Source: Escherichia phage vB_EcoM_E9. Taken from it: 64,000 nt of DNA. This document shows, one piece after another, positions 5,851-16,376 of the stretch (its first letter is position 1; each line of letters opens with the position of its first letter). The notes below the pieces were generated by a model. That model worked only from the letters and a program-made list of their open reading frames with translations, did no database searches and was not told the DNA's origin. The DNA is taken from sequence record PP886229; one strand, given 5' to 3'. The position numbers were made by a program, and so were the translations under genes.

Positions 5851-6315
5851 TTACTTTGGATATACACTGTCAAGATAAATGTCAGCTTCCATTCTACGTC
5901 TGTTTTTCAAGCCGTTTGAAGTGACCTTCTCACCTTTGACTGTAATCTTGTTCCACCACTGCATAGCTTCTGCACAACCTACCTTATTACCAGCATTGTG
6001 GCGCTTGATAAATGTAGAATCCTGCATAGCTGTGATACCGATGTTGTATGTTTCACTTACAAGTGCATCGAACTCATTCTGAGAAGTAGGAACCTTGATA
6101 GCTTTGTTCACTGCTGCAACAAACTTTTCAACATCTGCGAGAAGATACTGTTCAGCTTGTTCAGCAGTAATTTTCATACCCATCTTAACAGGTTTTCCGT
6201 CAATACGGATTGTGCCATACCCAATTGTTGGGATTCCGGCAGAGTCTTTGTAAGCCTCTAACTTCAGACCTTCAAAGAACTTAATAGCTTCTAAACCTTT
6301 TCTTGAGAGTTGCAT
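5851..6315 (-). CDS. phage lysozyme (GH24, T4-lysozyme-like endolysin)
   Basis: 154 aa; N-terminal E-x8-D-x5-T catalytic-triad spacing in FEGLKLEAYKDSAGIPTIGYGT. Confidence 0.8.
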   Translation of the reverse strand: MQLSRKGLEAIKFFEGLKLEAYKDSAGIPTIGYGTIRIDGKPVKMGMKITAEQAEQYLLADVEKFVAAVNKAIKVPTSQNEFDALVSETYNIGITAMQDSTFIKRHNAGNKVGCAEAMQWWNKITVKGEKVTSNGLKNRRRMEADIYLDSVYPK

Positions 6316-7448
6316 TATGCCTCCCCTGTTGGGTTAACTGTAACTGTTGCCGCATTAGATGTTACAGAGCCACCTGCACCAGTTACTACACAAGTGTAAG
6401 AACCTGCATCAGCAGCAGTTGCACCTTCTTTGGTGTAAGTTGCAGCAGTTGCGTCTGGGATGACTTCCTCACCTTTCTTCCACTGGTAACCTGTTGCACC
6501 AGTTGCCACAACATTCAGCGTTAAGGTCTCACCTTCAGTGATTTCTTGATTTGCTGGCTGTTGAGTGATTACAGGAAGAGCATTCACAGTAACTGTCGCT
6601 GCATTAGATGTGACTGAACCACCTGCACCAGTTACAACACAAGTGTAAGAACCTGCATCTGCTGGAAGCGCACCAGTCTTGCTATAGGTAGCATTTGTAG
6701 CTGAAGGGATGTTAGAGCCATCTTTCTTCCACTGGTAACCTGTTGCACCTATTGCAGTCACTTCCAAGTTGATGTTTCCACCCTCATTAATGGTCTGACT
6801 AGAAGGTTGCTTGGTAATCACTGGTAGTGCATTAACAGTAACTGTTGCCGCATCTGAAGTAACACTTGTTCCAGCCTCTCCAGACACAACACAAGTGTAT
6901 GAACCAGCATCAGAAGGTGCTACGGATTGTTTTGTGTAAGTTGCAGAGGTAGCACTGGAGATGTCCTCACCACCCTTCTTCCACTGATATCCAGTGGCGT
7001 TAGTTGCAATAACACTTAGGGTAAGTGTTCCACCCTCATTGACCGTTTGGTTTGTTGGTTGTTGAGTAATTGCTGGTGGCTTAATAGCATCCTTCAGCTT
7101 AGCATTCAACATTGAGAAAGGTTTAACTCTTGCCAGCCATTCACAGTAAATTGTGTCAACATCTTTACCGTTGATGATTGCATACTGTAAATCCATGAAG
7201 AAATCAGCAGTCCTCATCTGTGCACCAACACTGTAAAGGAGTTCATCACTAAAAGGGACTTTGTAGTCTGGTTTGTAGTCAAACTTCTCAACCTCTGCGA
7301 TATCAGCTTCAGGCCAATATGAACTATAGGTAAGTGGTAAAATAGCCTCTTGATATGTTCTAAAATCATATCTCTTACCAGCCTTTACATTTGCAATGAA
7401 GCCCTTTACAAATTCTTTGAAGTCTGGATAAGTCTTTGCTTTAATCAT
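6315..7448 (-). CDS. Ig-like domain protein (three tandem Ig-like repeats) with N-terminal domain paralogous to the next gene
   Basis: 377 aa; three ~80 aa repeats each ending ATGYQWKKG...DAGSYTCVV...ATVTV; DNA shows three ~250 bp tandem repeats. Confidence 0.7.
   Translation of the reverse strand: MIKAKTYPDFKEFVKGFIANVKAGKRYDFRTYQEAILPLTYSSYWPEADIAEVEKFDYKPDYKVPFSDELLYSVGAQMRTADFFMDLQYAIINGKDVDTIYCEWLARVKPFSMLNAKLKDAIKPPAITQQPTNQTVNEGGTLTLSVIATNATGYQWKKGGEDISSATSATYTKQSVAPSDAGSYTCVVSGEAGTSVTSDAATVTVNALPVITKQPSSQTINEGGNINLEVTAIGATGYQWKKDGSNIPSATNATYSKTGALPADAGSYTCVVTGAGGSVTSNAATVTVNALPVITQQPANQEITEGETLTLNVVATGATGYQWKKGEEVIPDATAATYTKEGATAADAGSYTCVVTGAGGSVTSNAATVTVNPTGEA
6330..7060. repeat. 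Three tandem ~250 bp coding repeats encoding the Ig-like domains
   Basis: Near-identical stretches such as CCACTGGTAACCTGTTGCACC recur at ~6480, ~6725 and ~6975. Confidence 0.7.
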
Positions 7449-9526: not shown

Positions 9527-10942
9527 ATGAGCGAATTATTTAAACATGCGCACCTTCATGTAGGTCGAACTGAAAATGGTGCTGTAAACCATACTTCATC
9601 AATGTCTGCTCTTGTGGACTTTTACAAAGCTGCTGGTTCCAGCCGTAGTAATGTAGAAATCTTACCAGACTTGTTCTACAAAGCTTTGCGTGAGGATGTT
9701 GATGTTGCAGTTCGTATTTTACTGCATATGCGAGATGTACGAGAAGGTATGGGTGAGCGTAAAGCTTTCCGAACTGTTTTACTTCAAGCGATTGAAGATA
9801 AAGTTTTAGAGCCTACACAGGTTCTTCGCATTATGGATAAGATTGCAGAACTTGGTCGTTTTGATGACTTCAAAATCTTCGTAGGTACTCGTTTTGAGAC
9901 AGATGCCTTCAAACATTTAGAAGCAGCATTACTAGACCCTGCAACATCAGGTTTAGCGGCTAAGTGGTTACCACGAGTAAAACCACGCCACAAACAGTTT
10001 GTAAAACGTTTCTGTAAGTTTGCAAACTTAAGTGAGAAGGAGTATCGCACACTGTTATCTGCACTGTCTGATACGGTTGAGCAAAAAATCTCTGCTAATG
10101 AGTTTGGTAAGATTGACTACAGCAAGATTCCTTCACTCGCTGCTGCACGTTACCAAAAGCTCTTTAACCGTAAAGATGGGGAACGTTACAAAGCTTACAT
10201 TGAGTCCTTATCAAAAGGTGAGGCTAAGATTAACGCTGGTGCTGTTTACCCATACGATGTGATTAAATCTATCAAGTATGGTAATGCAGATGTTGCTAAT
10301 GAGCAGTGGAAAGCACTACCAAACTGGATGGCAGAAGGTGAGAACATCTTGTGTATGACTGATGTTTCAAGCTCAATGTCTTGGGTGAATATTGGTTCAA
10401 TCACTGCCCTTGATATTGGTGTATCACTTGCTTTGTATGTAGCAGAACGCAACACTGGTTGCTTTAAGAATGAGTTAATGGTTTACTCAACAAACCCTCA
10501 CTTCATCGAACTGAGTGGTGATTTACGAAACCGTCATCGTCAGGTAATGCGTCATGTTGAATATGGTTCAACTAACTTACAAGCAGCTTTTGACCGTATT
10601 CTTGAGGTAGGTAAGCGAAACAACTTGACTCAGAAAGATATGCCAAGTAAGCTTATTATCTTCTCCGATATGGAGTTCAATCAGGTTGATGGAGCTAACG
10701 GTCGTACAAACTTTGAAGCAATTCAGAGTAAGTACAAAAAAGCTGGATACGAAATGCCACAACTAGTATTCTGGTACTTAGCAAACCGTAATGGTACTTG
10801 CGAAGTATCTGTTAAGGATAATGGTGTAGCGATGGTATCAGGGTTCTCTCCAGCCACTTTAAAAGCTCTGCTTGGTGGTGAGAAGTTTGACCCAATCAGC
10901 GTAATGCTCAAAGCAGTAATGATTGACCGTTACATCTGGTAA
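9527..10942 (+). CDS. von Willebrand factor A (vWA) domain protein with large N-terminal domain (TROVE/DUF2828-like suspected)
   Basis: 471 aa; MIDAS-like DxSxS motif (CMTDVSSSMSW) in the C-terminal half. Confidence 0.55.
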   Translation: MSELFKHAHLHVGRTENGAVNHTSSMSALVDFYKAAGSSRSNVEILPDLFYKALREDVDVAVRILLHMRDVREGMGERKAFRTVLLQAIEDKVLEPTQVLRIMDKIAELGRFDDFKIFVGTRFETDAFKHLEAALLDPATSGLAAKWLPRVKPRHKQFVKRFCKFANLSEKEYRTLLSALSDTVEQKISANEFGKIDYSKIPSLAAARYQKLFNRKDGERYKAYIESLSKGEAKINAGAVYPYDVIKSIKYGNADVANEQWKALPNWMAEGENILCMTDVSSSMSWVNIGSITALDIGVSLALYVAERNTGCFKNELMVYSTNPHFIELSGDLRNRHRQVMRHVEYGSTNLQAAFDRILEVGKRNNLTQKDMPSKLIIFSDMEFNQVDGANGRTNFEAIQSKYKKAGYEMPQLVFWYLANRNGTCEVSVKDNGVAMVSGFSPATLKALLGGEKFDPISVMLKAVMIDRYIW

Positions 10943-10961: not shown

Positions 10962-10990
10962 TTGACAATGTGTTTGATACCCTTTAATAT
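10962..10990 (+). promoter_or_regulatory. Sigma70-like promoter TTGACA-N17-TAATAT upstream of the tRNA array
   Basis: Exact -35 hexamer, 17-nt spacer, -10 TAATAT; -35 sits inside inverted repeat GGGTAT/ATACCC. Confidence 0.5.
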
Positions 10991-11108
10991 GTTCTACATA
11001 GAAACGAAATGAGAGCTTTTCTAAGATACTGAAAAATATTTTAAAAAAGTTCTTGACAACCACTAAAAAATAATGTTAAAGTGGTTACATAGAGTTTGAA
11101 AAGTTTAT

Positions 11109-11185
11109 CTCTGTTTAGCTCAGCTTGGTAGAGCGTTCCGTTTGGGGCGGTAAGGCCGGAGGTTCAAGTCCTCCAACAGAGACCA
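11109..11185 (+). tRNA. tRNA-Pro (anticodon TGG)
   Basis: 7-bp acceptor CTCTGTT/AACAGAG, D-arm GCTC..GAGC, T-arm GGAGG-TTCAAGT-CCTCC, 3' CCA. Confidence 0.7.
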
Positions 11186-11192
11186 AATTAAT

Positions 11193-11270
11193 GTTCCAGT
11201 AGACAAAATGGTAAAGTCACCACTCTTTCAAAGTGGATATTTGAGGGTTCAAATCCCTTCTGGAACGCCA
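11193..11270 (+). tRNA. tRNA-Glu (anticodon TTC)
   Basis: Acceptor GTTCCAG/CTGGAAC, anticodon stem CCACT/AGTGG, T-loop TTCAAAT, CCA. Confidence 0.7.
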
Positions 11271-11277
11271 GTTTTGA

Positions 11278-11350
11278 CAGAAGACCAATTGCAGCAAACT
11301 TAATCTTATTCATCTGACACGAAATCGGACAAAGAAGAGATTTGGTCTGG
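11278..11350 (+). ncRNA. Stem-bounded tRNA-sized element, copy a (CAGAAG-AGACCAA ... TTGGTCT-GG)
   Basis: 7-bp terminal stem 11282-11288/11342-11348; conserved CAGAAG leader and CAGCAA box; no T-loop consensus. Confidence 0.4.
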
Positions 11351-11361
11351 TCATTAAGAAT

Positions 11362-11438
11362 TGCGGGTATAGAGAAAGGGCGTCTCACATGTCTCATTAG
11401 CATGGTATCGGCAGGTTCGACTCCTGCACCCGCCTCCA
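11362..11438 (+). tRNA. tRNA-Met-like (anticodon CAT), mismatched 1:72 pair
   Basis: Anticodon stem CATGT/GCATG, T-arm GCAGG-TTCGACT-CCTGC, CCA. Confidence 0.55.
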
Positions 11439-11444
11439 AATTTA

Positions 11445-11508
11445 CAGAAGACCGTTTACAGCAATATTTATTAAATTTTTAGCGGAAAAATTGAAAGATA
11501 CGGTCTGG
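11445..11508 (+). ncRNA. Stem-bounded element, copy b (CAGAAG-AGACCGT ... ACGGTCT-GG)
   Basis: 7-bp terminal stem with compensatory changes relative to copies a and c. Confidence 0.4.
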
Positions 11509-11521
11509 TAATACTAAACAT

Positions 11522-11598
11522 GGTTAGGAAGCACATAAGGTATGTGCGGTCGCCTGTTAAGCGAATGGCACAGGGTTCGAATCCCTGACTAACCGCCA
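11522..11598 (+). tRNA. tRNA-Asn (anticodon GTT)
   Basis: D-arm GCAC..GTGC, T-arm CAGGG-TTCGAAT-CCCTG, CCA. Confidence 0.65.
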
Positions 11599-11607
11599 AA
11601 TTTAAAT

Positions 11608-11695
11608 GTGTCGTTATCCCGTAGATGGTAGCGGTGGGGACTGTAAATCCCTTGTCATTGAGACTCGGTAGGTTCGACTCCTACACGGCACACCA
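11608..11695 (+). tRNA. tRNA-Tyr (anticodon GTA), long variable arm
   Basis: Acceptor GTGTCGT/ACGGCAC, anticodon stem GGGGA/TCCCT, T-arm GTAGG-TTCGACT-CCTAC, 88 nt. Confidence 0.7.
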
Positions 11696-11701
11696 AATAA
11701 A

Positions 11702-11779
11702 GGTTATGTAGTTTAATCTGGTTAAAATACTCCCCTGTCACGGGAGATGATGTGAGTTCAAGTCTCATCGTAACCGCCA
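11702..11779 (+). tRNA. tRNA-Asp (anticodon GTC)
   Basis: Acceptor GGTTATG/CGTAACC, anticodon stem CTCCC/GGGAG, CCA. Confidence 0.7.
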
Positions 11780-11866
11780 AATTATAATAAGTATTTCAAG
11801 ATGATGTTTTGAGAGGGCTATTTAGCCCCTCCCTTAAAGAGTTCTTACGAGTATTCTTTAAAGGAG

Positions 11867-11940
11867 CAGAAGACCAAATTCAGCAAGTTACTTAAAATTT
11901 CAAGCCAATTTAATTTTGAAAAATTTAAAACTTGGTCTGG
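11867..11940 (+). ncRNA. Stem-bounded element, copy c (CAGAAG-AGACCAA ... TTGGTCT-GG)
   Basis: 7-bp terminal stem 11871-11877/11932-11938. Confidence 0.4.
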
Positions 11941-11953
11941 CTCAAAAATTTTA

Positions 11954-12085
11954 CAGAAGACCGTTTACAGCAAAACTTAAACAATCTATTTCTCCGGTAA
12001 AGAAAAGGCGAAGGTTCGATTCCTTCACTCGGCAGATGTCGAGTTGGTGTAATGGTAGCACTTAAGATGATAAACAACGGTCTGG
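11954..12085 (+). ncRNA. Stem-bounded element, copy d, enclosing tRNA halves in permuted order
   Basis: 8-bp terminal stem AGACCGTT/AACGGTCT (11958-11965/12076-12083); contains a T-arm and a D-arm in reversed order. Confidence 0.4.
11989..12061 (+). tRNA. Candidate circularly permuted tRNA (anticodon GGT, Thr-like): 3' half 11989-12034 precedes 5' half 12038-12061
   Basis: 3' half has anticodon arm TTTCT-CCGGTAA-AGAAA, T-arm GAAGG-TTCGATT-CCTTC, acceptor ACTCGGC; 5' half has acceptor GTCGAGT (7 bp with one G-U) and D-arm GTGT-AATGGTA-GCAC. Confidence 0.35.
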
Positions 12086-12086
12086 T

Positions 12087-12230
12087 AATTATCTTTGTAG
12101 ATAAGTTATTAAGCTTACCTGTGAGTATGCGACCACAAAGGGTGAAAGGGCAAATTCTAGATTTAAACCCAACAAGGCACATCGCTACAGACCTTAAGCA
12201 AGTCTGGGTAGCTTATCTACAAAGATAATT
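12087..12230. repeat. 19-bp perfect inverted repeat AATTATCTTTGTAGATAAG (12087-12105 / 12212-12230) flanking ~106 bp
   Basis: Arms are exact reverse complements. Confidence 0.6.
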
Positions 12231-12234
12231 TAAT

Positions 12235-12310
12235 GGAAGTGTAGCAGAATGGTGATGCGGCAGACTTTTAATCTGACAGGCGATGGGTTCGAATCCCTCC
12301 ACTTCTACCA
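12235..12310 (+). tRNA. tRNA-Lys (anticodon TTT)
   Basis: Acceptor GGAAGTG/CACTTCT, loop CTTTTAA, T-loop TTCGAAT, CCA. Confidence 0.6.
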
Positions 12311-12314
12311 ATAT

Positions 12315-12391
12315 GGTTCAGTCGCAGATAAGGTAATGCAGGGGTCTCATAAGCCCTATGAATGTGGGTTCGATTCCCATCTGAACCTCCA
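12315..12391 (+). tRNA. tRNA-Met or tRNA-Ile2 (anticodon CAT)
   Basis: Perfect acceptor GGTTCAG/CTGAACC, loop CTCATAA, CCA. Confidence 0.7.
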
Positions 12392-12392
12392 A

Positions 12393-12468
12393 GCTGGTAT
12401 AGTTAAGAAGGTTATAACACTCCCCTGATAAGGGAACATCGGTGGTTCGATTCCACCTACCAGTACCA
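12393..12468 (+). tRNA. tRNA-Ile (anticodon GAT)
   Basis: T-arm GGTGG-TTCGATT-CCACC, loop CTGATAA, CCA. Confidence 0.65.
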
Positions 12469-12483
12469 ATTTCAATAAAGTTG

Positions 12484-12512
12484 TTGACATTGAGATGTGA
12501 CTACTTTATAGT
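12484..12512 (+). promoter_or_regulatory. Sigma70-like promoter TTGACA-N17-TATAGT inside the tRNA array
   Basis: Exact -35 at 12484-12489 and -10 TATAGT at 12507-12512 with 17-nt spacer. Confidence 0.55.
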
Positions 12513-12805
12513 AACTGAAAATAATTCAGCATATGTATAATTCAAACACCAATACATGAGCGTTAGACGTAACACAATGTGGGGAAATTTGTTGTACATA
12601 TTCTGAATAGTTTTCGTTGCGTAGCGTCTATTTTGCAAATTTAAAATAAATGCAAACGACAATGTTTTTCTGGCAGTAGCTTGATAGGCTAAACACCAGT
12701 GAGGTCTTCCAATCCCTCATCAAAGAATTTGGCGTACTAGCCCACGGTATGATTAATAAGGTGGGCATCTTTAAGGGCTTTCTAAGAGAGTCTTTAAAGA
12801 TTAAT

Positions 12806-12882
12806 GCACCCTTAGTTCAATTGGATAGAGCAACGGTCTTCTAAATCGTTAGTTACAGGTTCGAATCCTGTAGGGTGTGCCA
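12806..12882 (+). tRNA. tRNA-Arg (anticodon TCT)
   Basis: D-arm AGTTCAATTGGATAGAGC, loop CTTCTAA, T-loop TTCGAAT, CCA. Confidence 0.7.
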
Positions 12883-13024
12883 AATAGTTAGCAGATTGCT
12901 TAGACGACCTTATCGGGTCTCCGTGTAAGGAGGTGGTCTGTATCTCATGTTTTCCAGAACATGTAAATAATCTGAGAAGGGGCTTTACAGTGTTGCGAAA
13001 ATACGGTAAGCTTCGAATTACAGT

Positions 13025-13107
13025 ATGGGACGATGTTAAGACTCTAAGGCATGAGCAACGGCCTCCAAAACCGTTTCAAAGGGGTTCAACTCCTCCGTCC
13101 CATGCCA
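13025..13107 (+). tRNA. Atypical tRNA-like sequence, anticodon unassigned
   Basis: Acceptor ATGGGAC/GTCCCAT plus T-loop-like GGGGTTCAACTCC and CCA, but no clean D-arm or 7-nt anticodon loop. Confidence 0.3.
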
Positions 13108-13120
13108 AAGTCTTATTAGG

Positions 13121-13208
13121 GGTAGGTAGCGGCTAATGGCAGCCAAACAGTCTTGAAAACTGTTGCCACTGTAGAGATACGGTGAGGGTTCGACTCCTTT
13201 ACTTACCG
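13121..13208 (+). tRNA. tRNA-Ser (anticodon TGA), long variable arm
   Basis: Anticodon stem ACAGT/ACTGT, loop CTTGAAA, long variable arm, T-loop TTCGACT; no encoded CCA. Confidence 0.6.
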
Positions 13209-13364
13209 CCTAATAAGATTTACACCGTCCATGCTTGCTCGCATTTTCGGTTTATCCCTCGTGTATTGTCGTACACTGATAAAGCACCTAGCAGGTGTCA
13301 CGGAGAAGAGATAATATCAAGCTCTCCAAAGGTTCTAGTCACCGGATTAAACAAGACTATGCAA

Positions 13365-13384
13365 AGACCTATTTAGGTCTTTTT
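13365..13384 (+). terminator. Rho-independent terminator AAGACCT-ATTT-AGGTCTT followed by TTTTT
   Basis: 7-bp stem plus T-run, inside the tRNA array. Confidence 0.6.
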
Positions 13385-13463
13385 AGAGGGCTTCTAAGGT
13401 TATTACAGCTTGTTGTGGAACCTTGTTGCTTAGGTTCTTAGAAGTTCTCTAAAAAGATTTAAT

Positions 13464-13541
13464 GGGAGATTGACGGTAATTGGTAAACCTACCATCCTTA
13501 GAAGTTGGTGTTTGAGGGTTCGAATCCCTTGTCTCCTACCA
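13464..13541 (+). tRNA. tRNA with apparent anticodon TAG (Leu-type) but short variable arm; identity uncertain
   Basis: Acceptor GGGAGAT/GTCTCCT, T-arm GAGGG-TTCGAAT-CCCTT, CCA; 78 nt. Confidence 0.5.
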
Positions 13542-13548
13542 AATTAAT

Positions 13549-13624
13549 GCAGGTGTAGCAAAATGGTTATGCGGCTGACTCTTAATCAGTAAGACGATGG
13601 GTTCAATTCCCTCCACCTGTACCA
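13549..13624 (+). tRNA. tRNA-Lys (anticodon CTT)
   Basis: Anticodon stem GCTGA/TCAGT, loop CTCTTAA, CCA. Confidence 0.65.
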
Positions 13625-13630
13625 AACAAT

Positions 13631-13706
13631 GGGGTCATAGTTTATATGGTTAAAATTCTAGTTTTGCAAACTTGGGAACTGAGTTCAATTCTCAGTGACT
13701 CCACCA
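13631..13706 (+). tRNA. tRNA-Ala (anticodon TGC)
   Basis: Acceptor GGGGTCA/TGACTCC with the G3:U70 wobble typical of tRNA-Ala; CCA. Confidence 0.75.
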
Positions 13707-13712
13707 ATTAGT

Positions 13713-13787
13713 GCATCCATAGTTTAAACGGGAAAATTACAGTCTTCCAAACTGAGGTTGAGGGTTCGATTCCCTCTGGATGCTCCA
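13713..13787 (+). tRNA. tRNA-Gly (anticodon TCC)
   Basis: Perfect acceptor GCATCCA/TGGATGC, loop CTTCCAA, CCA. Confidence 0.7.
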
Positions 13788-13794
13788 AATTAAT

Positions 13795-13870
13795 GCTCCT
13801 ATCGTATAATTGGCTATTACGGTTGCCTTGTAAGCAACTTATCAGGGTTCGAATCCTTGTGGGAGCACCA
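13795..13870 (+). tRNA. tRNA-Thr (anticodon TGT)
   Basis: Anticodon stem GTTGC/GCAAC, loop CTTGTAA, T-loop TTCGAAT, CCA. Confidence 0.7.
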
Positions 13871-13874
13871 ATTT

Positions 13875-13961
13875 AGAGGTCAAGTGAAAGACCGCTTTGA
13901 GTCAACTGAAGACCGTAACAAATTCCACGGAGTTGAGTTAGCGGCACAACTTCAGACCTCT
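13875..13961 (+). ncRNA. Stem-bounded ~87 nt non-tRNA element (AGAGGTC ... GACCTCT) containing GAAGACC motifs
   Basis: 7-bp terminal inverted repeat 13875-13881/13955-13961; no T-loop consensus. Confidence 0.3.
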
Positions 13962-13966
13962 TTAAT

Positions 13967-14041
13967 ACTCGCTTAGTTTATATGGTAAAACACCACCCTT
14001 ACAAGATGAAGAAAAAGGTTCAAGTCCTTTAGTGAGTACCA
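13967..14041 (+). tRNA. tRNA-Val (anticodon TAC), weak anticodon stem
   Basis: Acceptor ACTCGCT/AGTGAGT, D-arm GTTT..AAAC, T-arm AAAGG-TTCAAGT-CCTTT, CCA. Confidence 0.5.
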
Positions 14042-14042
14042 T

Positions 14043-14120
14043 GTTCCAGTATCCCAATTGGTAGAGGATGCAAGCTCAAACCTTGCACTAGTGACGGTTC
14101 GAATCCGTCTTGGAACACCA
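14043..14120 (+). tRNA. tRNA with anticodon CAA (Leu-type) but class I architecture; identity uncertain
   Basis: Perfect anticodon stem GCAAG/CTTGC, loop CTCAAAC, T-arm GACGG-TTCGAAT-CCGTC, CCA. Confidence 0.55.
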
Positions 14121-14125
14121 ATTTT

Positions 14126-14201
14126 GCAGGATTAGTTCAAATGGATAGAGCAACAGTCTACGAAGCTGTTAATAGGGGTTCGAATCCCTTATCCTGCACC
14201 A
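14126..14201 (+). tRNA. tRNA-Arg (anticodon ACG)
   Basis: Perfect acceptor GCAGGAT/ATCCTGC, loop CTACGAA, CCA. Confidence 0.7.
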
Positions 14202-14219
14202 ATTAAGTAAGAGGGATTT

Positions 14220-14462
14220 ATGCAAACATTAATAGTCGTTGAACATGAAAATTCCAATAGCATTGAGTTTGTAAGGGTTCCCACTATAGATACCCACATT
14301 TTCTTGAAAGTCGGCTGGGGATGCGACCCAATAAGAGTAGAAAAATTTATTGGTCATTGCTTTGGTGGAAGACAACTTAAAAGTGTCAATTTTGAGACAA
14401 TGCTACCAGAAAACTCAGAAACAAATAATAATGCTTACCTCCTTACGAGGATTAGACAATGA
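14220..14462 (+). CDS. hypothetical protein embedded in the tRNA array
   Basis: 80 aa ORF in a tRNA-free gap, stop overlaps the next ORF start. Confidence 0.4.
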   Translation: MQTLIVVEHENSNSIEFVRVPTIDTHIFLKVGWGCDPIRVEKFIGHCFGGRQLKSVNFETMLPENSETNNNAYLLTRIRQ

Positions 14463-15016
14463 GATACTTAAAATATGTTTCATGGATTTTCTTAGCTTTG
14501 TTAGAGCCATTTGCAGCAATCTTAGCAGTTATCTTAGCACCTTTTGTAGTTCCATTTTACAGTGAGAAGAAAGGACACTTACCTTTCGGATTTAGATGGA
14601 TGGAAACTTATGACAACCCGATTGATGGTGATGAAGGTCATGTCAAACGATGGGCTAAGATTAGAAAGATTGGTAAGCTTGGTGTCTATTTACAGAGAGT
14701 TGGATGGCTCTGGAGAAACAAAGCTTATAACTTCTCTTACCATGTGTTAGGAAGAGATGTAAAAGATGTTACTAAGTGGAAAGGTAATATCAACGTAAGC
14801 TCTGACCCTGAAGATAATCAGACAGGTTATCTCCTAATGTGGAACAGTAATGCTTGGGGATTATTCGCTTTTATCCCATCAATTAAAGTCTTTGGTAAAC
14901 AATTCTACTGGAGAATTTATGTTGGATGGAAACTTAAAAGTGTTGTCCCAGAAGAAAGAGCATTCTCAAGGGAAAGAGTTATGTTGGCATTCTTTATTCA
15001 TCCACTAAGAAAGTAA
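14459..15016 (+). CDS. putative membrane protein embedded in the tRNA array
   Basis: 185 aa; N-terminal hydrophobic helix (WIFLALLEPFAAILAVILAPFVVPF). Confidence 0.5.
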   Translation: MRYLKYVSWIFLALLEPFAAILAVILAPFVVPFYSEKKGHLPFGFRWMETYDNPIDGDEGHVKRWAKIRKIGKLGVYLQRVGWLWRNKAYNFSYHVLGRDVKDVTKWKGNINVSSDPEDNQTGYLLMWNSNAWGLFAFIPSIKVFGKQFYWRIYVGWKLKSVVPEERAFSRERVMLAFFIHPLRK

Positions 15017-15024
15017 AGATTTAA

Positions 15025-15100
15025 AGGGGATTAGTTTACAAGGTTAAAACCTCGGTCTTTGAAATCGAAGAAGTTGGTTCAATTCCAACATCCCCCGCCA
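15025..15100 (+). tRNA. tRNA-Gln (anticodon TTG)
   Basis: Anticodon stem TCGGT/ATCGA, loop CTTTGAA, T-arm GTTGG-TTCAATT-CCAAC, mismatched 1:72 pair. Confidence 0.6.
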
Positions 15101-15102
15101 AT

Positions 15103-15181
15103 GCTCCATTACTCCAATTGGCAGAGAGGCCAGACTTAAAATCTGTGTTATGTATCGGTTCGAATCCGATATGGAGTACCA
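15103..15181 (+). tRNA. tRNA with anticodon TAA (Leu-type) but no long variable arm; identity uncertain
   Basis: Acceptor GCTCCAT/ATGGAGT, loop CTTAAAA, T-arm ATCGG-TTCGAAT-CCGAT, CCA. Confidence 0.5.
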
Positions 15182-15186
15182 AATTT

Positions 15187-15262
15187 AGCGGTATAGCATA
15201 ACTGGCAATGCAGCAGTCTCTGAAGCTGTCTTATTAAGGTTCAAATCCTTATGCCGCTGCCA
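15187..15262 (+). tRNA. tRNA-Gln (anticodon CTG)
   Basis: Anticodon stem GCAGT/GCTGT, loop CTCTGAA, T-arm TAAGG-TTCAAAT-CCTTA, CCA. Confidence 0.6.
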
Positions 15263-15293
15263 CTTCTAAGGGTTCTTACGAGAGTCCTTAAAT

Positions 15294-15369
15294 GTGGCCT
15301 TATCATAAATGGTAATGACCCATGCTGTGAACATGGTCTATACGGGTTCAAATCCCGTAGGTCACCCCA
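15294..15369 (+). tRNA. tRNA-His (anticodon GTG)
   Basis: Perfect anticodon stem CCATG/CATGG, loop CTGTGAA, CCA. Confidence 0.65.
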
Positions 15370-15375
15370 ATTTAT

Positions 15376-15451
15376 AGTCCAAGTAGCTTATATGGTTAAA
15401 GCGCGTGTCTGAAAAACATGAGAAGAGGGTTCAAATCCCACTGGACTACCA
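15376..15451 (+). tRNA. tRNA-Phe (anticodon GAA)
   Basis: Loop CTGAAAA, T-loop TTCAAAT, acceptor 3' strand CTGGACT, CCA; overlaps the GTG start proposed by the ORF track. Confidence 0.55.
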
Positions 15452-15467
15452 ATTTCAAAGGTGCTTA

Positions 15468-16202
15468 ATGAAAGAGATGACAGAACAAGGTAAGGAGATT
15501 TTTAATCTCTTAAAAACCGGTAGAGGGTTTTCTAACCCCCTTATTACTGGTGCAGCAGTTCTCGGTGGAACCGTAGCTGCCTCTACATCACTTGTAAGCT
15601 CTATTAGCTCTGTAACAGACCCTACAATAAAGGATAAGCTTGTTGCTGCTGGGCTTACAACAGTTCTGCTTAATAGCTTTACAACGAGTCTGACAAGCAC
15701 TACATCAACTACTAAGACACTGACAGATTACGGTCAAAAGTCCATTGATGAGTTTTCATCACGTATGCAGGTAGCAAAAGGATATTCCAATGTTATGGGT
15801 GCAGCAGGAGAGCAAGTCGGTTGTACGCCATTTAGTGGTATTATGGGTGTTGCTACAGAATATGGTCAAAAAGCTATTGACACGATTAACAACACGTTAG
15901 ACAGTGTTAATGATGTATTAAGTGACTTACAAGATGCTATTGATAAAGGTCTTGATACTGTTTCTGATTTAGCTAACCAAGCTGTTAGCAAGATTAATGA
16001 AGGTATCTCGAAGATTACAGCTTATGCAGATGAAGTTGTGCAGATGATTGAAGAAGAAGCTGCCCTTATTGCAGAGTACCTTAAAACGAATATCAATGGG
16101 TTCTTAGCAGGTATCTTACCAGACTGGTTTGACGATGCTTGTAAAACTGGTGTGATTGACACTATTGCAACACAAGAAATGAAGAACGCATTACAGAAAT
16201 AA
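15468..16202 (+). CDS. hypothetical Ser/Thr-rich protein with N-terminal hydrophobic segment
   Basis: ORF track 15405..16202 starts at a GTG inside tRNA-Phe; in-frame ATG at 15468 (MKEMTEQ) clears the tRNA. Confidence 0.5.
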   Translation: MKEMTEQGKEIFNLLKTGRGFSNPLITGAAVLGGTVAASTSLVSSISSVTDPTIKDKLVAAGLTTVLLNSFTTSLTSTTSTTKTLTDYGQKSIDEFSSRMQVAKGYSNVMGAAGEQVGCTPFSGIMGVATEYGQKAIDTINNTLDSVNDVLSDLQDAIDKGLDTVSDLANQAVSKINEGISKITAYADEVVQMIEEEAALIAEYLKTNINGFLAGILPDWFDDACKTGVIDTIATQEMKNALQK

Positions 16203-16203
16203 T

Positions 16204-16296
16204 GGAAGATTAACCCTAAAAGGTAAGGGAGCAGTTTGCTAAACTGCCAGTAGCTGAGAAATCGGTGTACCAGTTCAAGTCTGGTATCTTCCTCCA
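16204..16296 (+). tRNA. tRNA-Ser (anticodon GCT), long variable arm
   Basis: Perfect anticodon stem GCAGT/ACTGC, loop TTGCTAA, T-arm ACCAG-TTCAAGT-CTGGT, CCA; 93 nt. Confidence 0.65.
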
Positions 16297-16300
16297 ATTT

Positions 16301-16376
16301 GAATCCGTGACAGAAATGGCTATGTGCCTGTCTGCAAAACAGGTTTATAAGGGTTCGAGTCCCTTCGGATTCTCCA
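16301..16376 (+). tRNA. tRNA-Cys (anticodon GCA)
   Basis: Perfect acceptor GAATCCG/CGGATTC, anticodon stem CCTGT/ACAGG, loop CTGCAAA, CCA. Confidence 0.7.

What the first reader, a model, noticed from the sequence alone, without database searches (positions are those of the whole stretch)
11989..12061. Candidate circularly permuted tRNA gene (3' half upstream of 5' half)
Within element d, an anticodon arm (TTTCT-CCGGTAA-AGAAA, anticodon GGT), a perfect T-arm (GAAGG-TTCGATT-CCTTC) and a 3' acceptor strand ACTCGGC are followed after a 3-nt linker by a 5' acceptor strand GTCGAGT (7 bp with the upstream 3' strand, one G-U) and a D-arm GTGT-AATGGTA-GCAC. Every tRNA arm is present but in permuted genomic order. 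Permuted tRNA genes are known in a red alga and some archaea; one in a phage would be new. It may instead be a rearranged pseudogene.
Basis: inference. Interest (0 to 1): 0.7.

Follow-up and report, generated by a model that had tools for sequence, protein, structure and literature searches.

The report
Phage Y RNA with tRNA-like module
The "permuted tRNA" is real in the sequence, but it is most likely the tRNA-mimicking half of a small Y-type RNA that partners the Ro60-like protein encoded just upstream in this Felix O1-like phage; this looks like a previously unrecognised branch of a known RNA-protein system rather than a new kind of tRNA gene.

Summary
Only the linker differs: it is 4 nt, not 3. 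ARAGORN calls the rearranged sequence tRNA-Thr(GGT), and of 127,840 identically rearranged windows only this site and one artefact gave a call.

It is not a tRNA gene or a pseudogene. It sits inside "element d" (11951-12088), one of four paralogous RNAs in the phage tRNA array. All four are closed by the same covarying two-part stem followed by UUNCAGCAA.

The order V hairpin, T arm, closed acceptor-like hairpin, D arm is the published architecture of YrlA bacterial Y RNAs. The ORF just upstream (9527-10942, DUF2828) models as a Ro60 ring.

Across Ounavirinae the T and D arms are invariant and the acceptor-like helix covaries. The "anticodon" loop varies and has 6 nt in many close relatives.

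A covariance model finds full-length homologues beside DUF2828 genes that are only 39-47% identical, always on the gene's strand.

It fails Rfam's YrlA model and lacks the GNCGAA motif, so I rate it a new variant of a known kind. Some relatives encode N-CCA in the acceptor loop, so RNase P opening remains possible.

The parts
9527..10942 (+). Gene for a 471-aa Ro60-like protein (alpha-helical ring plus vWA/MIDAS domain; Pfam DUF2828 + DUF7788), the proposed protein partner
   Evidence: Pfam DUF2828 3e-29 and DUF7788 1e-43. PHROG 850 'RNA-binding protein'. AF2 model pLDDT 87, pTM 0.87. The top 11 Foldseek PDB hits are all Ro60/TROVE/Rsr, aligned over the full length, E 3e-8 to 4.5e-7, TM 0.40-0.65. 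DxSxS MIDAS residues D279/S281/S283 are invariant. Mycobacteriophage homologues are annotated 'Ro-like RNA binding protein'.
10962..11082 (+). Two sigma-70-like promoter matches (10962-10990 and 11053-11082) upstream of the tRNA/Y-RNA array; probable source of a polycistronic precursor
   Evidence: 10/12 matches each. No + strand terminator-like site and no stronger promoter match before 12484. These are consensus matches only; co-transcription is inferred.
11275..11353 (+). Element a: short Y-like RNA without a tRNA-like module. P1 TGAC/GTCA, internal loop AGA vs G, P2 AGACCAA/TTGGTCT, then TTGCAGCAA
   Evidence: the MFE fold forms P1 and P2. R1 hit 37.6 bits.
11442..11511 (+). Element b: short Y-like RNA. 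P1 TTAC/GTAA, P2 AGACCGT/ACGGTCT, then TTTACAGCAA
   Evidence: R1 hit 51.1 bits. SUSP2 has the compensatory P1 variant TTGC/GCAA.
11864..11943 (+). Element c: short Y-like RNA. P1 GAGC/GCTC, P2 AGACCAA/TTGGTCT, then ATTCAGCAA
   Evidence: Not reported by R1 with default filters in the window; the assignment rests on the sequence itself and on orthologues.
11951..12088 (+). Element d: long Y-like RNA. Closing stem plus the tRNA-like module that is the finding
   Evidence: R1 153.7 bits (by construction). Present in 251 phage records.
11951..11973 (+). 5' half of the proposed protein-binding module of d: P1 5' strand TTAC (11951-11954), loop AGA (11955-11957), P2 5' strand AGACCGT (11958-11964), TTA, CAGCAA (11968-11973)
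   Evidence: P1 and P2 covary among paralogues and orthologues. CAGCAA is conserved in distant phages.
11989..12005 (+). Poorly conserved; corresponds to the variable V stem-loop of YrlA
   Evidence: Loop sequence and length vary. This helix has the lowest pairing support, 75-78% of cells paired.
12010..12026 (+). T arm GAAGG-TTCGATT-CCTTC
   Evidence: Invariant in Ounavirinae. The stem covaries and the loop is conserved in distant homologues.
12027..12044 (+). Acceptor-stem-like hairpin (AS): ACTCGGC - AGAT - GTCGAGT, 7 bp, closed by a 4-nt loop
   Evidence: Three pairs show changes on both sides within Ounavirinae. All 7 pairs covary in the wider set. Loop variants are listed.
12045..12061 (+). 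U8-G9 equivalent plus D arm GTGT-AATGGTA-GCAC (A14, G18, G19 and A21 equivalents present)
   Evidence: invariant, including a U-G pair that would be A-C on the other strand. The stem covaries in distant homologues.
12077..12088 (+). 3' half of the closing stem of d: P2 3' strand ACGGTCT (12077-12083), unpaired G (12084), P1 3' strand GTAA (12085-12088)

Best explanation
Element d (11951-12088, + strand) is a YrlA-type Y RNA of a Felix O1-like phage. The 'permuted tRNA' at 11989-12061 is its tRNA-like effector module.

Proposed mechanism, with each step marked:

1. Transcription and release (inferred). The RNA is transcribed with the tRNA array from the promoters at about 10962-11082. It is released when RNase P and the 3'-processing enzymes cut out the flanking tRNAs.

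2. Folding (shown by covariation). Its ends pair into a two-part stem: a 4-bp P1, an internal loop of AGA opposite G, and a 7-bp P2 that starts with conserved A-U and G-C pairs. This is followed by the single-stranded motif UUNCAGCAA.

3. Protein binding (inferred). This module, shared with the three short paralogues a-c, is proposed to be the binding site for the Ro60-like ring protein encoded immediately upstream (9527-10942). The basis is conserved gene-RNA linkage and orientation, plus analogy with Ro60-Y RNA complexes.

4. tRNA mimicry. The interior folds as V hairpin, T arm, closed acceptor-like hairpin and D arm (secondary structure shown by covariation). By analogy with the S. Typhimurium YrlA crystal structure it should reproduce the tRNA elbow, without a usable anticodon or a free CCA end (inferred).

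5. Function (inferred, effector unknown). The elbow mimic recruits a tRNA-recognising host factor, or gates access to the ring protein. Candidates are PNPase as in the RYPER complexes, RNase P, modification enzymes or RNA repair enzymes. The protein would thereby be directed to structured RNA or tRNA quality control during infection.
For: 1. Architecture. V - T - AS - D enclosed by 5'/3' pairing is what Chen et al. 2014 (PMC4201824) and Wang et al. 2018 (10.1101/312249) describe for YrlA. It shares the invariant T and D stems and the variable V and AS.

2. Protein partner. The upstream ORF models as a Ro60 ring plus vWA domain. The top 11 PDB hits are all Ro60/TROVE/Rsr, and the MIDAS motif is invariant.

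3. Paralogues. Four elements share the closing stem with compensatory changes. P1 is TGAC/GTCA, TTAC/GTAA or GAGC/GCTC, and TTGC/GCAA in SUSP2. P2 ends in AA/TT or GT/AC.

4. Orthologues. The AS helix is ACTCGGC/GTCGAGT, ACACGU/GCGUGU or ACCCUUC/GAAGGGU, while the T and D arms are invariant.

5. Distant phages. Model R1 gives 49 hits in 75 loci whose DUF2828 genes are 39-47% identical. All lie on the gene's strand, and many abut the gene. In the 31-sequence alignment 94.8% of cells pair, against 35-45% in slid controls, and 29 of 32 pairs change on both sides.

6. A scan independent of the tRNA-like part (helix + CAGCA + complementary helix + G). It gave 75 hits within 700 nt of the gene in 46 of 75 loci on the gene strand, and 0 on the other strand.

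7. Link to known YrlA. In mycobacteriophage LeBron a DUF2828 homologue is followed by a sub-threshold Rfam YrlA match (39.8 bits, E 8e-6). R1 also hits that site.

8. Strand. Invariant G-U pairs and the strand bias show that the structure is RNA on the + strand.
Against: - No expression, end-mapping or binding data exist. The RNA-protein interaction is inferred only from linkage.
- Rfam's YrlA model finds nothing in 11260-12240 even at E<=10.
- The GNCGAAN0-1G motif that marks canonical YrlA is absent.
- The protein matches Ro60 by predicted fold only. Sequence searches of the PDB are not significant (best E 0.23).
- The A3 alignment used for covariation was fitted to the model.
- Natural deletion variants (SP116, ESCO56) show the module is dispensable for propagation.
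- The effector bound by the tRNA-like part is unknown even for canonical YrlA.
Confidence: 0.78

Rival explanations
1. The same Y-type RNA, but with the acceptor-like hairpin opened. RNase P would cut 5' of G12038. The 3' side would be trimmed and CCA-added, as shown for M. smegmatis YrlA. The result would be a two-piece, Ro-bound tRNA-like RNA with a free acceptor end, which might even be aminoacylated.
For: - The AS here is 7 bp and stacks on a 5-bp T stem, followed by A at the discriminator position. [quoted passage not shown]
- In 5 of about 16 independent lineages the AS loop starts with N-CCA directly after a 7-bp stem: Moogle/Mordin GCCA-AACA, L103 ACCA-ACUAU and CCCA-AU, L072 GCCA-AUU, L111 GCCA-AUUUAU.
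- My rough binomial estimate for that by chance is about 4e-6.
- None of these sites is an ARAGORN tRNA.
Against: - This window encodes AGAT, not CCA.
- Sister genera close the helix with a UACG tetraloop on 6 bp, and other lineages use GNRA or 3-4-nt loops. Opening is therefore not a conserved requirement.
- The encoded CCA may be a relic of origin from a tRNA dimer, the Sim & Wolin model cited.
- S. Typhimurium YrlA and Yrn1 are not cleaved.
Confidence: 0.12
2. A genuine circularly permuted tRNA-Thr(GGU) gene. Its precursor would be circularised or ligated at the 26/27 junction and opened at the acceptor stem, yielding a decoding tRNA.
For: - All arms are present, and ARAGORN accepts the rearranged sequence.
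- The flanks pair (P1/P2), as in permuted pre-tRNAs.
- The array otherwise has only tRNA-Thr(UGU).
Against: - The anticodon loop is not conserved in sequence or length. It is C33 here and a 6-nt loop in many close Felixounavirus. The 'anticodons' are GGT, ATA, ATG and TTT-like.
- The junction has AGA opposite G between P1 and P2, not a bulge-helix-bulge motif (read from the sequence).
- No CCA is encoded.
- The same closing stem encloses three cargo-less paralogues.
- A splicing endonuclease of the archaeal/eukaryal type has not been reported in bacteria.
Confidence: 0.03
3. A rearranged, decaying tRNA pseudogene, for example the remnant of a tandem tRNA duplication trimmed at both ends.
For: - tRNA arrays recombine. 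In SP116 the T loop of this element has recombined with that of tRNA-Lys.
- The module is dispensable in SP116 and ESCO56.
- Origin of YrlA from tRNA dimers has been proposed.
Against: - T and D arms are invariant across three genera.
- The AS helix is maintained by compensatory changes.
- Homologous structures with full covariation occur in phages whose partner protein is only about 40% identical.
- None of this is expected of a neutral relic.
Confidence: 0.02
4. The four elements are only structured spacers or processing signals of the tRNA operon (for example RNase III or RNase E entry sites). They would have no dedicated protein partner, and the tRNA-like cargo of d would be incidental.
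For: They lie between tRNAs, a few nucleotides from mature tRNA ends. No binding data exist.
Against: - The helix + CAGCAA elements track the DUF2828 gene in position and orientation in 46 of 75 distant loci and never on the opposite strand. This holds also in phages where they directly abut the gene rather than tRNAs.
- A conserved single-stranded CAGCAA and an invariant tRNA elbow are not needed for a nuclease entry site.
Confidence: 0.05

Closest known systems
YrlA (Y RNA-like A; Rfam RF02553) of Salmonella Typhimurium, Mycobacterium smegmatis and mycobacteriophages, partner of the Ro60 orthologue Rsr
   Same: - Encoded next to a Ro60-type gene.
- The 5' and 3' ends pair into a protein-binding stem.
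- The interior is V stem-loop, T arm, closed acceptor-like hairpin and D arm, with tRNA elbow nucleotides.
- T and D stems are highly conserved, while V and AS are variable.
- Short paralogues without the module exist (compare YrlB).
- The published descriptions say YrlA RNAs resemble circularly permuted tRNAs.
   Different: - No Rfam YrlA hit.
- No GNCGAAN0-1G motif. Instead there is a conserved P2 start (A-U, G-C) flanked by purines, plus UUNCAGCAA.
- The partner is Pfam DUF2828/DUF7788, not an annotated TROVE protein.
- There are four copies interleaved with tRNA genes in a phage tRNA array.
- The V hairpin looks like an anticodon arm (5 bp, 7-nt loop).
Circularly permuted tRNA genes of Cyanidioschyzon merolae and Thermofilum pendens
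   Same: The 3' half (T arm and 3' acceptor strand) lies upstream of the 5' half (5' acceptor strand and D arm). [quoted passage not shown]
   Different: - No bulge-helix-bulge junction.
- No conserved anticodon loop.
- No evidence for, or enzymology of, circularisation in a coliphage.
- The element belongs to a family whose other members carry no tRNA parts.
Thermus phage phiLo Ro60 with Yrl1/Yrl2 (PMC12135203) and Deinococcus radiodurans Rsr-Yrn1-PNPase (RYPER)
   Same: A phage- or bacterium-encoded Ro60 ring with adjacent small stem-bulge-stem RNAs. The phiLo Ro60 crystal structure is the top structural match of the window's protein.
   Different: The phiLo Yrls use the CGAA motif, and the terms 'tRNA-like' and 'YrlA' do not occur in that paper. 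Yrn1 has a different arm orientation.
Two-piece (permuted) tmRNA genes
   Same: A permuted tRNA-like domain enclosed by a long-range helix. A tmRNA-like tag frame lies 550 nt downstream in the same array.
   Different: - The acceptor helix has no G3-U70 alanine identity pair.
- The D arm is complete.
- Three tRNA genes and a promoter separate it from the tag frame.
- ARAGORN finds no tmRNA at default settings.

Membership tests
YrlA-type bacterial/phage Y RNA | Encoded close to, and co-oriented with, a Ro60 orthologue gene | tested here: met
   Element a starts 333 nt and element d about 1 kb downstream of ORF 9527-10942, on the same strand. The ORF is Ro60-like by predicted fold. The linkage is conserved in distant phages.
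YrlA-type bacterial/phage Y RNA | tRNA-like domain in the order (V) - T arm - closed acceptor-like stem-loop - D arm, with conserved T-loop and D-loop nucleotides | tested here: met
   The T loop is UUCGAUU, the D loop is AAUGGUA, and the U8 equivalent is present.
YrlA-type bacterial/phage Y RNA | GNCGAAN0-1G motif near the 5' end (proposed Rsr contact) | tested here: not met
   The 5' region reads UUACAGAAGACCGUUUACAGCAA. Distant homologues keep only R-AG...UUNCAGCAA.
YrlA-type bacterial/phage Y RNA | Match to Rfam RF02553 at gathering score (69 bits) | tested here: not met
   No YrlA match at E<=10 in 11260-12240. The model is in the library: it scores 39.8 bits on LeBron.
YrlA-type bacterial/phage Y RNA | Physically bound by the Ro60 orthologue; carries the tRNA modifications psi55 and D | not testable with these tools
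   Needs RIP/EMSA and modification mapping.
Circularly permuted tRNA gene (C. merolae / archaeal type) | 3' half upstream of 5' half, with acceptor strands complementary | tested here: met
Circularly permuted tRNA gene (C. merolae / archaeal type) | Bulge-helix-bulge motif at the junction, for the splicing endonuclease | tested here: not met
   The junction region has P1 (4 bp), then AGA opposite a single G, then P2 (7 bp). It lacks two 3-nt bulges on opposite strands staggered by a 4-bp helix (read; fold).
Circularly permuted tRNA gene (C. merolae / archaeal type) | Functional, conserved 7-nt anticodon loop (U33, purine 37) with a conserved anticodon | tested here: not met
   C33 here. Many Felixounavirus have a 6-nt loop. 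The loop sequence differs between genera.
Circularly permuted tRNA gene (C. merolae / archaeal type) | Circular intermediate and a mature collinear tRNA | not testable with these tools
   Needs circular RT-PCR or split-read RNA-seq.
Ro60 / TROVE protein family (for ORF 9527-10942) | alpha-helical (HEAT-like) ring plus C-terminal vWA domain with a MIDAS motif | tested here: met
   AF2 model. Full-length Foldseek matches to 9kop, 2i91, 1yvr and 2nvo. DxSxS is invariant.
Ro60 / TROVE protein family (for ORF 9527-10942) | Significant sequence match to TROVE/Ro60 | tested here: not met
   Pfam gives DUF2828 + DUF7788, not TROVE. phmmer and a profile HMM against the PDB are not significant; Ro60 is the best profile hit at E 0.23.
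Two-piece tmRNA | Alanine-identity acceptor stem (G3-U70) and a tag reading frame on the coding piece contiguous with the 5' acceptor strand | tested here: not met
   The acceptor pairs are G1-C72, U2-G71 and C3-G70. The tag-like frame at 12640-12684 is separated from it by three tRNA genes.

The most novel reading that the evidence does not exclude
Felix O1-like phages, and hundreds of other phages that carry a DUF2828 protein, would encode a distinct, undescribed branch of the Ro60-Y RNA system, marked by helix + UUNCAGCAA. In this branch the tRNA-like module would not be merely a closed mimic. In at least some lineages, and possibly here, RNase P would open it to expose an encoded or added CCA end. 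That would create a Ro-tethered, two-piece, circularly permuted tRNA that could be charged. It could also act as bait or decoy for host tRNA-targeting nucleases, or engage the translation or tRNA-repair machinery during infection.
Probability: 0.12. Interest if true: 0.8.

Novelty: new variant of a known kind. Interest (0 to 1): 0.55.

Why it matters
- It turns an apparent oddity, a permuted tRNA in a coliphage, into a testable ribonucleoprotein hypothesis in an easily handled E. coli/Salmonella phage system.

- If the assignment holds, Ro60-Y RNA systems are far more common in phages than current annotation shows. DUF2828 homologues occur in 709 phage records, and element d occurs in 251.

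- These RNAs use an RNA signature (R-AG-helix, UUNCAGCAA) that the Rfam YrlA model does not detect in this window.

- The function of the tRNA-like module of Y RNAs is an open question. The following features give a genetic handle on it:
  - four paralogues, with and without the module, in one operon;
  - natural deletion variants;
  - relatives with an encoded CCA;
  - co-location with phage tRNA arrays, and in one relative (Listeria phage AG20) with an RtcB-type ligase gene.

- A practical consequence is that these intergenic gaps are currently annotated as 'none' or as spurious small ORFs.

Tried and rejected
- **Rfam scans**: only a weak partial tRNA hit and no YrlA hit. The absence is meaningful, because the YrlA model is in the library.
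- **The repeats as sigma-70 promoters** (TTGACA/TTTACA...): rejected. Element c has no -35 box, the -10 boxes are poor, and the 'boxes' covary as an RNA helix with a downstream partner.
- **A DNA-level structure** (recombination site or cruciform): rejected because of invariant G-U pairs and complete strand bias.
- **Bulge-helix-bulge reading of the junction**: not present.
- **Element d as the tRNA-like domain of a two-piece tmRNA**, prompted by the downstream ANDNVFLAVA frame: rejected. There is no G3-U70 pair, and three tRNA genes plus a promoter lie in between. The relaxed ARAGORN calls span neighbouring tRNA genes (my reading of their coordinates).
- **Sequence-only searches of the protein against the PDB** led nowhere. 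A structure prediction was needed.
- **My first motif scanner** was too permissive: 202 hits on the gene strand against 139 on the other strand and 67 in shuffled sequence. I replaced it with a stricter one that includes a position and strand control.
- **Literature searches** for DUF2828 or Felixounavirus together with Ro60, TROVE or Y RNA returned no paper that links them. I could not read Supplemental Table S2 of Chen et al. 2014 (22 phages) or the 2020 Annual Review. Prior listing of these phages therefore cannot be fully excluded.
Full report
**1. Observation**

- hairpin TTTCT-CCGGTAA-AGAAA, 11989-12005
- spacer AGGC
- T arm GAAGG-TTCGATT-CCTTC, 12010-12026
- ACTCGGC, 12027-12033
- AGAT, 12034-12037
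- GTCGAGT, 12038-12044
- TG
- D arm GTGT-AATGGTA-GCAC, 12047-12061

The linker is 4 nt, not 3. Position 33 of the would-be anticodon loop is C. No CCA is encoded.

ARAGORN calls the rearranged sequence tRNA-Thr(ggt). As a chance control I applied the same rearrangement at every offset of both strands, giving 127,840 constructs. Calls came only at four adjacent offsets of this site and once inside tRNA-Pro.

**2. Context**

The window is a Felix O1-like phage (Ounavirinae). The 455-nt gap that holds the finding matches 251 phage records, most at 95-99% identity. It lies in an array of 26 tRNA genes at 11109-16376, all on the + strand.

The finding sits inside one of four repeated elements:
- a, 11275-11353
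- b, 11442-11511
- c, 11864-11943
- d, 11951-12088

Each element is closed by the same two-part stem:
- an outer 4-bp helix P1 (TGAC/GTCA, TTAC/GTAA, GAGC/GCTC, TTAC/GTAA);
- an internal loop of AGA opposite a single G;
- an inner 7-bp helix P2 (AGACCAA/TTGGTCT or AGACCGT/ACGGTCT).

This is followed on the 5' side by TTNCAGCAA. The differences between copies are compensatory. RNAfold forms P1 and P2 in all four, and in d it also forms the V, T, AS and D hairpins. Elements a-c carry only a small AU-rich hairpin where d carries the tRNA-like module.

**3. Close relatives**

I compared Felixounavirus, Suspvirus and Mooglevirus.

- The T and D arms are invariant.
- The acceptor-like helix (AS) has three forms:
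  - ACTCGGC-AGAT-GTCGAGT here;
  - ACACGU-UACG-GCGUGU, 6 bp closed by a UNCG tetraloop, in SUSP2, Sf13 and ESh22;
  - ACCCUUC-GCCAAACA-GAAGGGU in Moogle and Mordin.
- Three AS pairs change on both sides.
  - CCGGTAA here;
  - CTGGTAA in SUSP2 and Sf13;
  - a 6-nt CGGTAA in many Felixounavirus;
  - CTATAAA or CTATGAA in ESh22-like phages;
  - ATTTTCA in Moogle.

This pattern fits neither a decoding tRNA nor a decaying pseudogene.

Invariant G-U pairs, for example in the D stem, would be A-C on the other strand. The structure is therefore RNA on the + strand.

Two natural deletion variants show the module is dispensable. SP116 arose by T-loop to T-loop recombination with tRNA-Lys. ESCO56 is the second.

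**4. The neighbouring gene**

ORF 9527-10942 (+, 471 aa) ends 333 nt upstream of element a.

- It hits Pfam DUF2828 + DUF7788 and PHROG 850 'RNA-binding protein'.
- Sequence searches of the PDB are not significant.
- An AlphaFold model built from a 37-sequence alignment has pLDDT 87 and pTM 0.87.
- Its top 11 Foldseek PDB matches are all Ro60/TROVE/Rsr proteins, aligned over the full length: Thermus phage phiLo Ro60, Xenopus and human Ro60, and Deinococcus Rsr. E-values run from 3e-8 to 4.5e-7 and TM scores from 0.40 to 0.65.
- All other matches are isolated vWA domains at E > 1e-3.
- The DxSxS MIDAS residues are invariant.
- Homologues occur in 709 phage records. The mycobacteriophage ones are annotated 'Ro-like RNA binding protein'.

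**5. What is known**

Chen et al. 2014 (PMC4201824) describe YrlA RNAs, encoded next to Ro60 orthologues in bacteria and 22 phages.

- They have a 5'/3' stem that carries a protein-binding motif.
- The interior is ordered V stem-loop, T arm, closed acceptor-like stem-loop, D arm.
- T and D stems are nearly invariant, while V and AS are variable.
- M. smegmatis YrlA has a 7-bp AS. It is cut by RNase P and then receives CCA.

Wang et al. 2018 (10.1101/312249) solved the tRNA-like domain. [quoted passage not shown]

Element d has this architecture.

**6. Test in distant phages**

I built a covariance model (R1) from ten Ounavirinae versions of d. I searched 75 IMG/VR loci that encode DUF2828 proteins only 39-47% identical to the window's protein.

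- R1 gave 49 hits at E<=1, all on the gene's strand.
- Many directly abut the gene: L072 7388-7506 and 7509-7630 after a gene end at 7371; L047 5821-5948 before a start at 6001; L103 7790-7922 and 7996-8117.
- The full-length hits keep UUNCAGCAA, a V hairpin, a T arm, an AS, a U-R dinucleotide and a D arm, with all helices covarying.
- On the 31-sequence alignment 94.8% of cells pair, against 35-45% when partners are slid.
- 29 of 32 pairs change on both sides.
- The covariation score is 0.50, against at most 0.08 in the slid controls. The caveat is that this alignment was fitted to the model.
- ARAGORN finds no tRNA at these sites.

A scan that ignores the tRNA-like part looked for a 6-bp helix, 2-4 nt, CAGCA, the complementary strand and a G. 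It found 75 elements within 700 nt of the gene in 46 of 75 loci on the gene strand, and none on the opposite strand. Short forms without the module also occur, including directly upstream of the gene in Listeria phage AG20 and Vibrio phage phi-Grn1.

**7. Relation to canonical YrlA**

Rfam holds YrlA (RF02553). It scores 39.8 bits (E 8e-6, below the gathering score of 69) just downstream of the DUF2828 gene of mycobacteriophage LeBron, and R1 hits the same site. This links DUF2828 proteins to YrlA-type RNAs.

The same Rfam model finds nothing in the window at E<=10, and the GNCGAAN0-1G motif is absent. The conserved features here are different:
- a P2 helix that begins A-U, G-C;
- an unpaired purine on each side of it;
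- UUNCAGCAA.

I therefore place element d as working like YrlA. I do not file it as a member of the Rfam family as currently defined.

**8. An unexpected subclass**

In five independent lineages the AS loop starts with N-CCA directly after a 7-bp stem:
- Moogle/Mordin, GCCA-AACA
- L103, ACCA-ACUAU and CCCA-AU
- L072, GCCA-AUU
- L111, GCCA-AUUUAU

My rough binomial estimate for 5 of about 16 lineages by chance is about 4e-6. There are two possible explanations: these RNAs are opened by RNase P to expose an encoded CCA, or they retain a relic of origin from tRNA dimers. Other lineages use GNRA or UNCG tetraloops or 3-4-nt loops, as here (AGAT).

**9. Mechanism**

Shown:
- the RNA secondary structure, by covariation;
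- the Ro60-like fold of the neighbouring protein, by prediction and structure match;
- the conserved linkage and co-orientation of the two.

Inferred:
- co-transcription with the tRNAs from promoter-like sites at 10962-10990 and 11053-11082, and release by tRNA processing;
- binding of the P1/P2/CAGCAA module by the Ro60-like ring;
- presentation of a tRNA elbow mimic that recruits or gates a tRNA-recognising host factor, such as PNPase as in RYPER, RNase P, or modification or repair enzymes.

I give this 0.78. The rivals are an RNase P-opened two-piece form (0.12), mere processing spacers (0.05), a true permuted tRNA (0.03) and a pseudogene (0.02).

**10. Novelty**

Y RNAs with tRNA-like modules, including in phages, are known. 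The kind is therefore not new, and the 'permuted tRNA' topology is the published description of YrlA.

What appears to be new:
- the Ounavirinae and DUF2828 setting;
- the distinct conserved RNA motif, which the Rfam YrlA model does not detect in this window;
- the four-copy arrangement inside a tRNA array;
- the CCA-bearing subclass.

Literature searches found no paper linking DUF2828 or Felixounavirus with Ro60, TROVE or Y RNA. I could not read the supplementary phage list of Chen et al. 2014.

Verdict: new variant of a known kind, interest 0.55.

Noticed in passing
window 12517-12805 (tag frame 12640-12684): There is a tmRNA-like mRNA region: AAUAAAU GCA AAC GAC AAU GUU UUU CUG GCA GUA GCU UGA UAG, which reads ANDNVFLAVA**. 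The peptide is conserved in Felixounavirus, Suspvirus and Mooglevirus with synonymous changes. It is preceded by a strong promoter-like site at 12484-12512 (11/12). Rfam tmRNA_permuted scores 23.6 bits and tmRNA 15.2 bits, both below gathering. ARAGORN finds no tmRNA at default settings. Its relaxed calls span neighbouring tRNA genes, judging from their coordinates. I saw no tRNA-like domain of its own, so this may be an orphan or highly divergent phage tmRNA.
   Followed up: partly
window about 13024-13104: This is a tRNA-like sequence that ARAGORN misses. Rfam tRNA-Sec scores 23 bits. My manual reading gives acceptor AUGGGAC/GUCCCAU, G73, an encoded CCA, T arm GGGG-UUCAACU-CCUC and loop CUCCAAA (anticodon CCA). 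It could be an atypical tRNA-Trp, the one common specificity absent from the 26 called tRNAs. Relaxed ARAGORN gave an unconvincing call.
   Followed up: partly
window 12087-12230: A 144-nt long-stem RNA structure lies directly after element d and before tRNA-Lys. Its MFE is -46.9 kcal/mol and its z-score is -5.9, with 0 of 200 shuffles folding as well. The 22-nt arms are 95% complementary. The stem shows compensatory changes in SUSP2, Sf13, ESh22 and Moogle, and the interior has a conserved TTCTAGATT. There is no Rfam match. Some records annotate a small ORF here.
   Followed up: partly
L115 (Salmonella phage SP116) 1500-1595; L116 (Escherichia phage ESCO56) 1515-1570: These are natural deletions. 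In SP116 the T loop of element d is fused to the T loop and 3' end of tRNA-Lys(UUU). This removes the AS, the D arm, the downstream hairpin and most of tRNA-Lys. In ESCO56 the stretch from tRNA-Tyr to the 3' part of element d is lost. It shows T-loop-mediated recombination within phage tRNA arrays.
   Followed up: yes
L111 1393-1844; L114 5216-6458: Other DUF2828 loci carry RNA-rescue or RNA-repair neighbours. L111 has an ARAGORN permuted tmRNA (tag ANDNNAYGAYALAA). Listeria phage AG20 has an RtcB-type 'tRNA splicing ligase' about 1.2 kb downstream of the DUF2828 gene.
   Followed up: no
window 11812-11861 and 15268-15292: A GC-rich hairpin (GAGAGGGCTATTTAGCCCCTCCC) is followed by the motif AAGAGTTCTTACGAGTATTCTTTAA. 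The motif recurs at 80% identity at 15268-15292, between tRNA genes (family D19). Its function is unknown.
   Followed up: no
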